Virus record (IMG/VR): IMGVR_UViG_642979322_000012
DNA length: 29,020 bases
Reading direction: 5' to 3' (one strand)
From: a virus
Taxonomy: Duplodnaviria; Heunggongvirae; Uroviricota; Caudoviricetes
Shown: positions 24,001 through 27,000 of the stretch, one piece after another
Layout: each line of letters begins with the position of its first letter
Numbering within the stretch: the first letter of the stretch is position 1
Program-made: the position numbers

Positions 24001-27000
24001 GATGAGCAGGAAACTCCGCTATGGTTTATCGGCTGCCGTTCTGGCGCTGATTGCCGCAGGTGCTTCTGCGCCTGAAATCCTCGACCAGTTTCTGGATGAA
24101 AAGGAAGGTAACCACACCACAGCATACCGTGATGGTGCGGGTATCTGGACCATCTGCCGTGGAGCCACCCGGGTGGATGGTAAGCCTGTTATTCCTGGCA
24201 TGAAGCTGTCGAAGGAAAAATGCGACCGGGTTAACGCCATTGAGCGTGATAAGGCGCTGGCATGGGTGGAGAAAAACATCAAAGTGCCGCTGACCGAACC
24301 CCAGAAAGCGGGGATCGCGTCATTCTGTCCGTACAACATTGGTCCCGGTAAGTGTTTCCCGTCGACGTTTTACAGACGAATTAATGCAGGTGATCGAAAA
24401 GGTGCCTGCGAAGCTATTCGCTGGTGGATTAAGGACGGTGGCAGAGACTGCCGTATTCGTTCAAACAACTGTTACGGTCAGGTATCCCGTCGTGACCAGG
24501 AGAGCGCGCTGGCGTGCTGGGGAATCGACAGATAAGAAGAATATTTTGCTGAAAAATGAGGTTTGCTTACATGGACGGATAACACGAAATCCTGCAAATT
24601 GGCAAAATGTAAGTGAATAAAGTCAAAGCAGTTGTTTAACACTCAGGCACCGTAATGATGCCTTTGTCATTTCTGCGCATCTCACGCGCATCTCACAACA
24701 CAGAACCTTTCAGGATGACCCTTGAGGATACCGGTTTGGCTGTCGGTGCCTTTCTGTGGGCTGGATTCCTGTGAGACAAGGTTCATCACTAAAAGGAAAT
24801 AACCGATGAATATGATGGCCGTGCCGTTTCACGGCAACTCTCTTTATGTAGTTAACCATAATGGCGAACCATACGTTCCCATGAAACCTGTCGTTGCGGG
24901 GATGGGGCTGGCCTGGCAATCACAGTTGGCTAAGTTAAGACAGCGTTTTGCGTCAACTATAACGGAAATCGTTATGGTTGCTGAGGATGGGAAACAACGC
25001 AATATGGTGTCCATGCCACTTCGAAAACTTGCCGGCTGGCTACAAACCATTAATCCCAACAAAGTAAAACCCGAAATCCGCGATAAGGTCATCCGGTATC
25101 AGGAAGAGTGCGACGATGTTCTTTACGAGTACTGGACGAAGGGTTTTGTCGTTAATCCCCGTAAAATGAGCGTGATGGAAGAACTCAACCAGGCTTGTGC
25201 TGACATGAAACGGGATAAAAACATTGCCAGTGTGTTTGCTACCGGGCTGAATGAGTGGAAACAGGTTAAAGCCGCGCATGTATCAAAAATCCGTACGCTG
25301 GTAAATGAAGCGAATATGCTGATTGATTTTGTCCTGGCTGATACAGGCAAAGGGAAAATAACAAAGGCGGATTGATGGGGTGGCTAATGATATCAGATAA
25401 ACTCATAACGCTGGTGAAGAGCCTCTGTGTACTTGTCGGCATTTCATTTTTAGTCATGCTGGTTGCCATTTTCTTTTCCACCGCCTGGCGAGTCCTGACG
25501 TTATCGGGACTGGTGGGGTGAAAGAGAGATGAACCGTGTTCTGTGTGTGGTGATTATTGTCCTGGCGGTTGGCTATGGTGCGCTGTGGCTGGCAACAAAC
25601 CATTACCGTGACAACGCGCTCACCTACAAAGCGCAGCGCGATAAAAAAGCCAGAGAGCTGGAACAGGCGAATGCCACCATTACTGACATGCAGGTGCGCC
25701 AGCGTGATGTTGCTGCGCTCGATGCAAAATACTCGAGGGAGTTAGCCGATGCGAGAGCTGAAAATGAAACTCTGCGTGCTGATGTTGCCGCTGGTCGTAA
25801 GCGCCTGCGGATCAACGCCACCTGCTCCGGTACCGTGCGTGAAGCCACCGGCACCTCCGGCGTGGATAATGCAACCGGCCCCCGACTGGCAGACACCGCT
25901 GAACGGGATTATTTCATCCTCAGAGAACGGTTGATGACAATGCAGAAGCAGCTGGAAGGGGCACAGGACTATATCCGCACTCAGTGCCTGAACTAAGTTT
26001 TGCTGATGCGCCGTATCGTCGCCGTATTCCTGCATTAACAGAGACCGCAGCCAGACAGGGAGACTCCTCTGCGAGAGTGTGCGGGGATAATCAAAAACGA
26101 TACACACCGGGGTTTACCGCGTTAACGGAGCGCGGTGTTGTCCCCTCATAGTCGCCAGTCCGGTGCGATGGTGGAAGAAACTGGATTTTGTTGCAAATGA
26201 TAACCATTATCATTTTGCGGGTCCTCCTGGTGGGGTGGGCCTGAACACGGGGCGGGCGGGCGCGGAAAAAGGCGCATTTTTGTGATTTTATCGTCATCAT
26301 CATCATGATGGTAACTTGTTGTTTTTAATGCTGTTAGTATTAAAAAGATGATGATTGTGGTTGTTTTTTGTTCGACATCTTTATATGGCGGCATTTCTTT
26401 ACAAAAAAACAGAGTCACTTCTGTTCTGCGGTTTATGTGGAGGGATGTAAATGGACGGCGAGCTGAAAAATATGAAGTTAAATATTAATCAACTGGCAGC
26501 CCTTTCAGGTCTGCACCGGCAGACTGTTGCCGCCAGAATGGCGGATGTTCCTCTTGCACCAGGCAGTAATGAAAAGAAAAAACTGTATCTCCTGACGGAT
26601 TTGATAACTTCGTTGCTGGAAAAACCACCATCTTCCGAAGATGAGGATATGGATCCTCACGCTCGTAAGGCATGGTATCAGTCCGAGCGCGAGCGTCTTA
26701 AATTTCAGCATGAAACTGTTCAGCTTGTGCCAGTCAGTGATGTCAGGCGGTCCTTTTCTGTCGTGGTGAAAGCGATAGTTCAGGTACTGGAAACCTGGCC
26801 TGACCGGCTGGAGAGGGACAGGGGGTGGACTGCATCACAACTGAATGAAGTACAGATTGTGGTTGATGAGATCCGCGACACACTGGAAAAGGCAGTCATT
26901 GACTGTTGTGATGAGGCCGATATGTGAATCAGGTGAACGAGAGCCATAGCCGCGCATCCGATATCTGGCGCGAAGTGGCCTCGCTGTTTCGCCCACCCAG

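What the first reader, a model, noticed from the sequence alone, without database searches (positions are those of the whole stretch)
24536..25528. Antirepressor-like gene and a small membrane ORF inserted in the lysis cassette between R and Rz, preceded by a tandem repeat
Seen in sequence: a 189-aa Bro-N/Ant-like ORF (24806-25375) sits between the SAR endolysin and Rz, with a 270-bp non-coding leader that contains a perfect tandem 2 x 11 bp repeat, GCGCATCTCAC (24675-24696). It is followed by an unannotated 44-aa single-TM ORF (25387-25521). Established knowledge: antirepressors can inactivate repressors of co-resident prophages. Inference: expressed late from pR' or from its own promoter, this module could cross-induce other prophages or modulate lysis timing, and the repeat could be an operator for a dedicated repressor.
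Basis: partly seen in the sequence, partly recalled or inferred. Interest (0 to 1): 0.5.

Follow-up and report, generated by a model that had tools for sequence, protein, structure and literature searches.

The report
Structured RNA leader before phage ant
The gene layout is a long-annotated feature of Shiga-toxin phages, but the "tandem repeat" is part of a widespread, apparently undescribed folded RNA leader that hides the ribosome-binding site of this and many other phage regulator genes.

Summary
The window is the Stx1 prophage VT1-Sakai (Sp15). The ant-like gene between R and Rz has been annotated in Stx phages for years. It carries P22_AR_N and ORF11CD3 domains, with no Bro-N or KilA-N profile hit.

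The 44-aa ORF is a real, fast-evolving small membrane-protein gene. It goes with the Rz-proximal site, not with ant.

The new result concerns the leader. Positions 24675-24808 form a conserved ~130-nt RNA element found in over 100 distinct versions, in prophages of at least 20 Enterobacterales genera and one Actinobacillus phage. An intrinsic-terminator-like hairpin usually precedes it. A different regulator or nuclease gene follows it in different phages: KilA-N, Rha, ANT, AntA, P22_AR_N, HNH, T5orf172 or TerB.

Covariation supports three features:
- a 5' hairpin, which is the first repeat unit;
- a pseudoknot between its loop and a downstream GUGNGA;
- a long hairpin that pairs an invariant CCUUUCAG with the Shine-Dalgarno region.

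Rfam 15 has no match. I read it as a translational gate on a late, Q-dependent transcript. The operator and own-promoter ideas are not supported, and antirepressor activity remains untested.

The parts
24002..24535 (+). R, phage-21-type endolysin with an N-terminal hydrophobic (SAR-like) segment; upstream neighbour
   Evidence: Pfam Phage_lysozyme E 6.4e-25. Annotated R/lysozyme in VT2-Sakai.
24536..24644 (+). R-proximal part of the spacer, not specific to ant
   Evidence: It aligns with the R-Rz spacer of the ant-less phages TL-2011c and PhiR12_5. Folding of the whole spacer is not exceptional, z = 0.06.
24645..24674 (+). Weak intrinsic-terminator-like hairpin (AGGCACCGTAATGATGCCT) plus a T-rich tract, directly 5' of the element
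   Evidence: Coordinates. The equivalent hairpin with a T run ends 5-22 nt before the element in 64 of 76 distinct contexts.
24675..24689 (+). P0 hairpin: GCGC stem, AUCUCAC loop, GCGC stem. This is repeat unit 1 plus the first 4 nt of unit 2.
   Evidence: The stem is 98.9-100% paired, with C-G to U-A and G-U variants.
24690..24702 (+). Linker: the rest of repeat unit 2 (AUCUCAC) plus AACACA. A/C-rich and variable in relatives.
   Evidence: Alignments A3-A7. The exact duplication is restricted to the Sakai-type lineage.
24703..24728 (+). 5' strand of the long hairpin. Region 1 is GAACCUU with the invariant anti-SD CCUUUCAG (24706-24713). Region 2 is GAUGACCCUUGAGGA (24714-24728).
   Evidence: CM alignment. 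Helices are 97-98% paired, with 13 of 21 pairs showing changes on both sides, and 12 of 21 in the independent set.
24729..24748 (+). Apical hairpin (UACCGG...UCGGUG)
   Evidence: All 5 pairs show changes on both sides, for example C-G 36 versus G-C 17.
24749..24770 (+). CU-rich and GGG segment, then UUCCU. It pairs with region 2 in the alternative fold I, or with AGGA in the long hairpin.
24771..24776 (+). Pseudoknot acceptor GUGAGA, complementary to the P0 loop UCUCAC
   Evidence: Central pair is G-C 23, U-A 17, A-U 2, C-G 2, other 1. 100 of 102 distinct elements form at least 5 of 6 pairs.
24777..24796 (+). 3' strand of the long hairpin, CAAGGUUCAUCACUAAAAGG. It ends in the Shine-Dalgarno purines (AAAGG, 24792-24796).
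   Evidence: SD-sequestering fold is the minimum-energy structure in 31 of 33 representatives, at -38.9 kcal/mol in the window.
24675..24808 (+). The whole conserved leader element, as matched by the covariance models
   Evidence: 146 bits with both R1 and R2. The opposite strand scores 13.4 bits. No Rfam match at E<=10.
24806..25375 (+). ant-like gene, 189 aa: P22_AR_N domain (residues 5-113) plus ORF11CD3 (122-164)
25387..25521 (+). Small ORF, 44 aa, with a single hydrophobic segment. An alternative ATG at 25375 overlaps the ant stop (TGATG) and gives 48 aa.
   Evidence: PHROG 4906, E 5.4e-30. 53 E. coli homologues. The conserved start is M-(I/S)-S-D-K. dN/dS is 0.27-0.56 for the most diverged pairs (dS > 0.35) and up to 0.91 for closer pairs, with no frameshifts in 9 variants.
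25529..25996 (+). Rz (i-spanin) with embedded Rz1 (25749-25934); downstream neighbour
   Evidence: Pfam Phage_lysis E 4.9e-50 and Rz1 E 1.7e-21.

Best explanation
The last 134 nt before ant, up to and including its start codon (24675-24808), are a conserved structured RNA leader, not a DNA operator. It belongs to a mobile cassette: an intrinsic terminator, then the leader, then an exchangeable gene for a regulator or nuclease.

**Shown by computation**
- The leader has a 5' hairpin (P0).
- The P0 loop base-pairs with a GUGNGA bulge about 90 nt downstream, forming a pseudoknot.
- A long irregular hairpin pairs its basal 5' strand (invariant CCUUUCAG, then GAUGA, then CCUUG) with CAAGG, UCAUC and CU-AAAGG. 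That buries the Shine-Dalgarno purines of ant.
- No promoter-like site is present, and a terminator-like hairpin sits immediately upstream.
- Transcripts truncated before the SD are predicted to adopt a different fold. In that fold the first copy of an internal direct repeat (GAACCUU..CAGGA) pairs with the same 3' strand and would leave the SD free.

**Inferred**
- The cassette is transcribed only by Q-modified, terminator-resistant polymerase coming from pR' through S and R.
- The equilibrium fold keeps ant translationally off.
- Translation is allowed only briefly on nascent RNA, or after an activating event. Candidates are RNase III cleavage of the roughly 20-bp helix, a protein, or an RNA.
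- The result would be a small, timed dose of a potentially toxic DNA-binding protein late in infection.

The Ant-like protein itself is a two-domain member of the shuffled KilA-N/Rha/Ant regulator class, and its target is unknown. The 44-aa ORF is a separate small membrane-protein gene that goes with the Rz-proximal position.
For: **Spread**
- The element is in 308 phage records at 72-100% identity, upstream of different genes.
- More than 120 viral contigs match.
- 48 covariance-model matches come from one-genome-per-species contigs across at least 20 Enterobacterales genera.
- 832 of 5426 complete E. coli genomes carry it, with a median of 3 copies.

**Covariation**
- With the SD-sequestering structure plus pseudoknot, 96.7% of cells pair and 23 of 36 pairs change on both sides. 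The covariation score is 0.320, against 0.114 when shuffled and at most 0.067 when the partners are slid.
- An independent genome set gives 95.9%, 23 of 36, and 0.348 against 0.125.
- The pseudoknot forms at least 5 of 6 pairs in 100 of 102 distinct elements. All four Watson-Crick combinations occur at the central pair, and wholly different alleles exist (UGCCC:GGGCA, CGCCC:GGGCG).

**Strand and coding**
- G-U pairs and a score of 146 versus 13.4 bits place the RNA on the + strand.
- About half of the sequences have no open frame on the + strand, and lengths vary continuously from 126 to 138 nt.

**Folding**
- The minimum-energy fold is the SD-sequestering one in 31 of 33 representatives.
- Truncated transcripts fold into the alternative in 30 of 33.

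**Context**
- A terminator-like hairpin precedes 64 of 76 contexts.
- No + strand promoter-like site was found.
- Downstream genes are KilA-N, Phage_pRha, ANT, AntA, P22_AR_N, HNH_3, T5orf172 and TerB.
Against: - There are no expression, probing or genetic data for this leader. None were found in the papers searched.
- The SD:anti-SD pairs are almost invariant. That key helix rests on conservation and energy, not covariation.
- The alignments used for counting were fitted to the tested structure by the covariance models.
- The sequences fall into a handful of lineages (types A to E), so independent events are far fewer than cells.
- The alternative fold I has weaker specific support. Its P2 and P3 helices are 86-94% paired with many invariant pairs. 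One truncated variant lacks its P1.
- Folding energy of the whole 295-nt spacer is not unusual, z = 0.06.
- The trigger that opens the hairpin is unknown.
Confidence: 0.6

Rival explanations
1. One reading: the 2 x 11 bp repeat is a DNA operator for a dedicated repressor, and the ant module has its own promoter in the 270-bp spacer.
For: The repeat is real and unlikely by chance. GCGC-N7-GCGC is also a DNA palindrome.
Against: The repeat is not conserved as a repeat. The stem tolerates C-G to U-A and G-U changes, and the loop covaries with a distant site. No + strand promoter-like site was found. Only 5-22 nt lie between the upstream terminator and the hairpin in relatives.
Confidence: 0.04
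2. The long hairpin is mainly an RNase III or RNase E processing or stability element. It separates the lysis mRNA from the ant mRNA. Cleavage either unmasks the SD, as in the lambda N leader, or destabilises the message.
For: The basal helix is about 19-21 bp with 2-3 mismatches or bulges in every type. That is the size class of RNase III substrates, by established knowledge of lambda N-leader and sib processing. This model is compatible with SD sequestration.
Against: It does not by itself explain the conserved pseudoknot or the apical domain. No cleavage data exist.
Confidence: 0.15
3. The leader is a true switch, either riboswitch-like or responsive to a protein or RNA. A factor stabilises fold I (P1-P5 plus pseudoknot) and frees the SD.
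For: There are two mutually exclusive pairings for the same 3' strand, both retained in sequence types A, B and E. Both folds have a pseudoknotted multi-helix core with invariant junction nucleotides. Fold I is the minimum-energy structure for nascent RNA in 30 of 33 representatives.
Against: Downstream genes are not metabolic and suggest no ligand. Fold I's own helices show little covariation. A purely kinetic explanation suffices.
Confidence: 0.12
4. The P0 hairpin acts in trans, like P1/P7 c4 RNA on icd-ant, with loop-target alleles giving phage-specific control among co-resident prophages.
For: There are many matched loop-acceptor alleles. In 10 of 14 loci with two copies the two copies carry different alleles. 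E. coli genomes carry a median of 3 copies.
Against: No Hfq-bound small RNA is listed at the Sp5 or estimated Sp15 coordinates in Tree et al. 2014. Cis pairing explains the same covariation. There is no Rfam c4 match.
Confidence: 0.07
5. The conserved leader encodes a small peptide, for example the 39-aa ORF at 24655-24774.
For: An ORF exists in the window.
Against: About half of the homologous elements have no stop-free frame. Lengths differ by non-multiples of three. Substitutions follow base-pairing, not codon position.
Confidence: 0.02

Closest known systems
ant gene of Stx phages (VT2-Sakai ant, 933W-type ant) between R and Rz
   Same: The DNA is identical. The window is 100% identical to VT1-Sakai and VT2-Sakai over S-R-ant-Rz. 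Ant is reported in 126 of 279 Stx phages (PMC8136144).
   Different: Nothing differs for the gene. Neither those annotations nor that survey mention the leader structure.
P22 Ant and its immI control (arc, mnt, sar antisense RNA)
   Same: The N-terminal P22_AR_N domain is 49.6% identical over residues 1-126. In P22, ant translation is also under RNA-level control, by established knowledge.
   Different: There is no P22_AR_C domain; ORF11CD3 takes its place. The gene sits in the late lysis cassette, not in an immI region. Control would be by a cis structure rather than an antisense sar RNA. The leader has no similarity to the P22 arc-ant region.
P1/P7 c4 RNA controlling icd-ant
   Same: A hairpin loop upstream in the same transcript is complementary to a downstream target in the ant leader. 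Matched loop-target alleles differ between phages. This comparison rests on established knowledge.
   Different: There is no Rfam C4 match. The target here is not the ribosome-binding site itself. Processing to a trans-acting RNA has not been shown.
IsrK / orf45-anrP leader of Gifsy-1 (PMC4825925)
   Same: A prophage leader with alternative structures gives a translationally inactive mRNA for an antirepressor-like gene, and it can be switched on.
   Different: There is no isrK Rfam match. No internal terminator or short isoform is evident here. The genomic position also differs.
Lambda cIII and N-leader translational structures; Mu com-mom; MS2 maturation-gene leader
   Same: These are phage mRNAs in which alternative or slowly forming structures decide SD access. 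RNase III, a protein, or co-transcriptional kinetics acts as the trigger. This rests on established knowledge. The window's own cIII element is at 7333-7391.
   Different: This is an unrelated sequence family. It has a loop-bulge pseudoknot, and it travels as a cassette with interchangeable downstream genes.
Shuffled KilA-N / Bro-N / Rha / ANT / P22_AR_N / T5orf172 / ORF11CD3 regulator class (Iyer, Koonin and Aravind 2002, recalled from memory)
   Same: The downstream genes of the leader are drawn from exactly this set.
   Different: To my knowledge a shared 5' RNA leader for the class has not been described.

Membership tests
P22-type antirepressor Ant | N-terminal P22_AR_N domain | tested here: met
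   PF10547, E 1.4e-45, residues 5-113. 49.6% identity to P22-type Ant over residues 1-126.
P22-type antirepressor Ant | Full-length architecture of about 300 aa with the P22 Ant C-terminal domain | tested here: not met
   The protein is 189 aa. Only ORF11CD3 follows the N domain, even at E<=10. Matches to P22-type Ant stop at residue 126.
P22-type antirepressor Ant | Located in an immI-type region with arc/mnt and sar control | tested here: not met
   The flanking genes are R and Rz. The leader is unrelated to P22 immI.
P22-type antirepressor Ant | Binds and inactivates a CI/C2-type repressor | not testable with these tools
   This needs binding or induction assays.
Bro-N / KilA-N domain proteins | Profile match to PF02498 (Bro-N) or PF04383 (KilA-N) | tested here: not met
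   Neither family is listed at E<=10.
Bro-N / KilA-N domain proteins | APSES/KilA-N-like DNA-binding fold | tested here: inconclusive
Phage-21-type lysis cassette (pinholin, SAR endolysin, Rz/Rz1) | P21-type holin S, lysozyme R, and Rz with embedded Rz1, in that order | tested here: met
   PF04971 E 7.2e-33, PF00959 E 6.4e-25, PF03245 E 4.9e-50, PF06085 E 1.7e-21.
Known RNA families (Rfam 15, including C4, isrK, Lambda_thermo, riboswitches and ribozymes) | Covariance-model match to the leader | tested here: not met
   No match at the gathering threshold in the window. None at E<=10 in 24400-25600.
SD-sequestering cis-regulatory leader | Conserved helix that includes the Shine-Dalgarno sequence | tested here: met
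   The CCUUU(C)AG: CU(A)AAAGG pairs are 97-100% paired, but almost invariant. This is the minimum-energy fold in 31 of 33 representatives.
SD-sequestering cis-regulatory leader | Effect on translation of the downstream gene | not testable with these tools
   This needs reporter fusions or toeprinting.
Riboswitch | Conserved multi-helix aptamer with alternative expression-platform pairing | tested here: inconclusive
   Two exclusive folds are predicted. The helices specific to fold I show little covariation.
Riboswitch | Ligand binding, and association with genes of one pathway | tested here: not met
   The downstream genes are diverse DNA-binding or nuclease genes, not a metabolic pathway. Ligand binding itself cannot be tested here.
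DNA operator made of tandem repeats | Repeat conserved in copy number and sequence among homologous loci | tested here: not met
   Relatives have one GCGC-N7-GCGC followed by a variable linker.

The most novel reading that the evidence does not exclude
The leader is a previously unrecognised class of bistable, pseudoknotted phage riboregulator. It gates translation of the whole Ant/KilA-N/Rha/Bro-type class of late-region genes. Its matched loop-acceptor alleles would make the gate phage-specific. That would allow, or prevent, cross-talk among the several lambdoid prophages in one cell, for example the multiple copies in E. coli O157:H7. If so, it would be an RNA layer controlling prophage cross-induction and possibly Stx-phage behaviour.
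Probability: 0.25. Interest if true: 0.8.

Novelty: new member of a known kind. Interest (0 to 1): 0.55.

Why it matters
Genes of the Ant/KilA-N/Rha/Bro class are among the most common and least understood accessory genes of temperate phages. Some can induce neighbouring prophages or kill the host. Finding that many of them share one exchangeable, structured leader gives a concrete handle on when and how much of these proteins is made. The conserved features are a terminator in front, a pseudoknot, and a buried ribosome-binding site. This applies to Shiga-toxin phages, which carry the element in hundreds of sequenced genomes. It also supplies a ready covariance model for annotating about 130 nt that current records leave blank or label as a hypothetical protein. 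The gene arrangement itself is ordinary and already annotated.

Tried and rejected
1. **AgvB/GcvB-sponge idea.** I suspected the CA-rich CACAACACA after the repeat was the anti-sRNA AgvB. Tree et al. 2014 place AgvB and AsxR between the moron and nanS-p. The published AgvB sequence is unrelated. CACAACA is not conserved in the linker.
2. **Rfam.** Nothing in the leader, even at E<=10.
3. **Promoter scan.** No + strand site. The terminator-like hit at 24729-24748 is the apical hairpin, and other sequence types lack a U run after it.
4. **Single-sequence folding of the whole spacer.** Uninformative, z about 0.
5. **RNAalifold on a plain MAFFT alignment of all types.** It recovered only parts of the structure, because indels between types mis-register the helices. 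Covariance-model alignments replaced it.
6. **Public datasets.** I looked for the small ORF in the Sakai ribosome-profiling small-gene lists, and for an Hfq-bound small RNA at the leader. Nothing is listed at the Sp5 coordinates or at my estimated Sp15 coordinates. Repeated prophage sequence and my coordinate mapping limit this check.
7. **Coding potential of the leader.** Rejected.
8. **Sequence search of solved structures with Ant.** No meaningful hit.
9. **NCBIfam.** No model for either protein.
10. **Literature searches.** None found a described leader upstream of KilA-N or antirepressor genes. One 2026 preprint on language-model mining of non-coding elements could not be opened.
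Full report
**What the window is.** The window is the Stx1-converting prophage VT1-Sakai (Sp15) of E. coli O157:H7. Positions 4100-29020 match it at 100% identity. The S-R-ant-Rz stretch is also 100% identical to VT2-Sakai.

The local gene order was checked by ORF listing and Pfam:
- nanS-p-type esterase, 21155-23101
- P21-type holin, 23782-23997
- lysozyme R, 24002-24535
- the 189-aa ORF, 24806-25375
- a small ORF, 25387-25521
- Rz, 25529-25996, with embedded Rz1, 25749-25934
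- a DUF1441 protein, probably the small terminase subunit

**Checking the observation.** Every coordinate in the finding is correct.
- The spacer 24536-24805 is 270 nt.
- Tandem Repeats Finder gives a perfect 2 x 11 array GCGCATCTCAC at 24675-24696.
- The 11-mer occurs nowhere else in the window.
- The only other tandem array in the window with score at least 40 is the replication-origin iterons at 13503-13580.

So the repeat is real and not a chance event. What it means is a different matter.

**The ant-like protein.**
- Pfam gives P22_AR_N (E 1.4e-45, residues 5-113) and ORF11CD3 (E 5.5e-6, residues 122-164). Nothing else appears even at E<=10, so there is no Bro-N or KilA-N profile match.
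- PHROGs files it under anti-repressor Ant, phrog_524. NCBIfam has no model.
- It is 49.6% identical to P22-type Ant, but only over residues 1-126. It lacks the C-terminal half of the 300-aa P22 protein.
- The same two-domain architecture of about 188 aa is common in Enterobacterales prophages, with 2580 homologues at E<=1e-5.

It is defensible, with moderate confidence, at the fold level: the N domain looks like a KilA-N/APSES-type DNA-binding module.

The presence of this gene between R and Rz is not new. It is annotated as ant in VT2-Sakai. A survey found Ant in 126 of 279 Stx phages (PMC8136144). No tool here can say whether it is an antirepressor.

**The small ORF.**
- PHROG 4906, unknown function, matches at E 5.4e-30.
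- The protein database holds 53 homologues, all from E. coli, mostly annotated as 48-aa hypothetical proteins at 69-100% identity.
In this window an upstream ATG at 25375 overlaps the ant stop (TGATG) and would give 48 aa.
- There are no frameshifts or internal stops. Nei-Gojobori dN/dS is 0.27-0.56 for the most diverged pairs, those with dS above 0.35. Closer pairs reach 0.91.
- That fits a real but fast-evolving single-pass membrane protein.

The ORF is not tied to ant. It also follows an ANT/KilAC-type gene in other Stx phages. In phage PhiR12_5, which has no ant, it again sits immediately 5' of Rz. TL-2011c has a different small hydrophobic ORF at the same place. Its role is unknown. I found no entry for it in the Sakai ribosome-profiling lists at the Sp5 coordinates.

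**The spacer is a mosaic.**
- Its first ~100 nt (24536 to about 24644) align with the R-Rz spacer of phages that lack ant.
- From 24675 to the ATG it matches, at 72-89% identity, sequences in P22-like Salmonella phages (SPN9CC, MG40, ST104, Oslo), E. coli phage Dewey and an Actinobacillus phage.
- In those phages the matching sequence lies after Rz, or next to the lysis genes, and is followed by quite different genes.

A pattern scan then gave more than 120 viral contigs. The same pattern in one-genome-per-species contigs gave 97 stretches. Of these, 48 elements in about 44 loci were confirmed by covariance model.
- The confirmed loci come from at least 20 Enterobacterales genera, including Salmonella, Citrobacter, Enterobacter, Raoultella, Serratia, Pantoea, Erwinia, Tatumella, Edwardsiella, Yersinia and Arsenophonus, plus Halomonas.
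- A few hits sit in metagenome bins or contigs labelled with unrelated taxa (Collinsella, Bacillota, Xanthomonas, Cellvibrionaceae). I regard these as probable contamination.
- Among complete E. coli genomes, 832 of 5426 carry the R-ant leader, with a median of three places per genome.

**Genes that follow the element.** They are KilA-N, Phage_pRha, ANT (KilAC), AntA/AntB, P22_AR_N, HNH_3 with or without AP2, T5orf172/MUG113 and TerB. Many end in ORF11CD3. This is the shuffled regulator set described by Iyer, Koonin and Aravind in 2002, which I cite from memory. The homology stops at the Shine-Dalgarno sequence and start codon. The leader therefore behaves as the fixed 5' part of a cassette with an exchangeable gene.

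**Structure of the leader.** By eye, and then with two covariance models built on 18 type-A sequences, it has four features.
1. *P0 hairpin.* GCGC stem, 7-nt loop, GCGC stem, at 24675-24689. This is repeat unit 1 plus the first four bases of unit 2. The stem shows C-G to U-A and G-U variants.
2. *Pseudoknot.* The P0 loop (UCNCAC) pairs with GUGNGA at 24771-24776.
3. *Long irregular hairpin.* CCUUUCAG-GAUGA-CCUUG-AGGA (24706-24728) pairs with UCCU (24767-24770) and with CAAGG-UCAUC-CU-AAAGG (24777-24796). The Shine-Dalgarno purines lie in the basal helix.
4. *Apical hairpin.* At 24729-24748.

Pair counts support this structure on two alignments.

| Alignment | Distinct sequences | Cells paired | Pairs changed on both sides | Covariation score | Shuffled | Slid partners |
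|---|---|---|---|---|---|---|
| Viral contigs | 62 | 96.7% | 23 of 36 | 0.320 | 0.114 | at most 0.067 |
| Genome contigs (independent) | 46 | 95.9% | 23 of 36 | 0.348 | 0.125 | at most 0.056 |

- No shuffle of 500 reached the observed covariation score on either alignment.
- The central pseudoknot pair is G-C 23, U-A 17, A-U 2, C-G 2, with one exception.
- Over 102 distinct elements, 100 form at least five of the six pseudoknot pairs. Wholly different alleles occur, including UGCCC:GGGCA, CGCCC:GGGCG and CCGCA:UGCGG.
- G-U pairs, and 146 bits on the + strand against 13.4 on the - strand, fix the orientation.
- About half of the homologues have no stop-free frame on the + strand, and lengths vary continuously, so the element is not coding.
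- Rfam 15 has no match, even at E<=10.

**A second fold.** The 5' half contains an imperfect direct repeat: GAACCUUUCAGGAU and GACCCUU-GAGGAU. In type B the pair is GAGCCUUUCAGUAAGC and GAGCCU-GAGAAAUGC. Either copy can pair with the same 3' strand.
- When the first copy pairs with it (fold I), the second copy forms a small apical domain and the SD is free.
- When the second copy pairs with it, the first copy pairs with the SD region.
- The SD-sequestering fold is the minimum-energy structure in 31 of 33 representatives, by about 5 kcal/mol.
- Transcripts cut just after the shared 3' strand fold into fold I in 30 of 33.
- Fold I also passes the pair-count test: 94.5% paired, 22 of 33 pairs, 0.229 against 0.095. 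Its private helices are mostly invariant or less well paired, and one shortened variant lacks its outer helix.

I treat fold I as plausible but less secure.

**Context of the leader.**
- In 64 of 76 distinct upstream contexts, an intrinsic-terminator-like hairpin with a T run ends 5-22 nt before P0.
- In the window this is the weaker hairpin at 24645-24663, followed by TTTGTCATTTCT.
- There is no room for a promoter, and no conserved sequence for one. The scan finds no + strand promoter-like site in 23000-26500.

**How it most likely works.**

*Shown:* the structure, its conservation, the buried SD, the terminator in front, and the predicted order of folding.

*Inferred:*
- Only Q-modified polymerase from pR' reads into the cassette, so ant is a late gene.
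- The finished leader keeps it translationally silent.
- Ribosomes can load only in the short interval before the SD-sequestering helix replaces fold I, or after something opens the helix.

The roughly 20-bp basal helix is a plausible RNase III substrate, as in the lambda N leader. A protein or RNA effector is equally possible. Matched loop-acceptor alleles, and the fact that 10 of 14 loci with two copies carry different alleles, keep a c4-like trans model alive at low probability. I put 0.9 on "conserved structured RNA", about 0.6 on "translational gate by SD sequestration", and much less on any particular trigger.

**Comparison with known systems.**
- The gene arrangement is already known.
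- The leader resembles, in logic, the lambda cIII and N leaders, Mu com-mom, the MS2 maturation-gene leader, P1/P7 c4-icd-ant, and the IsrK/orf45-anrP locus of Gifsy-1 (PMC4825925).
- It matches none of their models and has its own architecture.
- I found no description of it in Rfam or in the papers I could search. One recent preprint could not be opened, so prior description cannot be excluded.

**Verdict.**
- The operator and own-promoter ideas are not supported.
- The part worth following up is the ~130-nt leader, which appears to be an undescribed and widespread cis-regulatory RNA family of temperate phages.

Noticed in passing
window 20723-20932 (+): Full-length Rfam STnc100 match (176.7 bits) immediately 3' of stx1B. 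It probably corresponds to the roughly 271-nt Hfq-bound EcOnc42 of Sp15 in Tree et al. 2014.
   Followed up: partly
window 12426-12542 (-) and 11610-12823: ALIL frameshift pseudoknot (121.5 bits) inside an IS629-type insertion sequence in the early region.
   Followed up: no
window 7333-7391 (-): Lambda cIII thermoregulator element (88.5 bits). It is a known two-state SD-access RNA in the same prophage.
   Followed up: no
window 13503-13580: Four roughly 20-bp iterons (CATCCCCCAAAACGAGGGA) inside the O-like replication gene, presumably the origin.
   Followed up: no
L064:3275-3403, L068:9590-9718, L019:2122-2250, L047:9327-9455: A divergent copy of the leader has a different pseudoknot allele (CGCCC:GGGCG) and a recoded long hairpin. 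It lies about 4.6-5.6 kb upstream of the R-proximal leader copy in other Stx phages, in front of a TerB-domain gene. It is absent from this window.
   Followed up: partly
L024, L028, L146, L158, L033, L036, L078, L088, L135, L186: Some phages carry two leader cassettes in tandem, each with its own gene. In 10 of the 14 loci that carry two leader copies (these tandem cases plus the type-E loci listed above) the two pseudoknot alleles differ.
   Followed up: partly
L004 (TL-2011c) 1260-1433: Phages lacking ant have a strong terminator-like hairpin after R. They also have a different small hydrophobic ORF (...MAEKLSTWKYILIWLVFVIMASGYFIGQIRWW) ending at the Rz start. A small membrane ORF just 5' of Rz therefore seems to be a recurring feature.
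   Followed up: no
window 24690-24702: The linker CUCACAACACA contains the GcvB R1 target consensus CACAACA. The motif is not conserved in other leader types, so it is probably incidental.
   Followed up: partly
window 23239-23418 and 23285-23704 (+): Two overlapping conserved ORFs of unknown function lie between nanS-p and the holin. PHROG 494 matches the 59-aa ORF, PHROG 8301 matches the 139-aa ORF, and PHROG 311 matches its C-terminal 81 residues. One of them is annotated DUF826 in related phages.
   Followed up: no
L227 (VT2-Sakai record 17415-18946): The related Stx2 phage carries a second annotated ant and a roi-type anti-repressor in the nin region. These phages therefore encode several Ant-class proteins.
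   Followed up: no
Genome-contig loci L193, L196, L185, L153: Elements identical or near-identical to E. coli types occur in contigs labelled Xanthomonas pisi, Collinsella, Bacillota and Cellvibrionaceae. These are probably assembly or binning contamination rather than true hosts.
   Followed up: no
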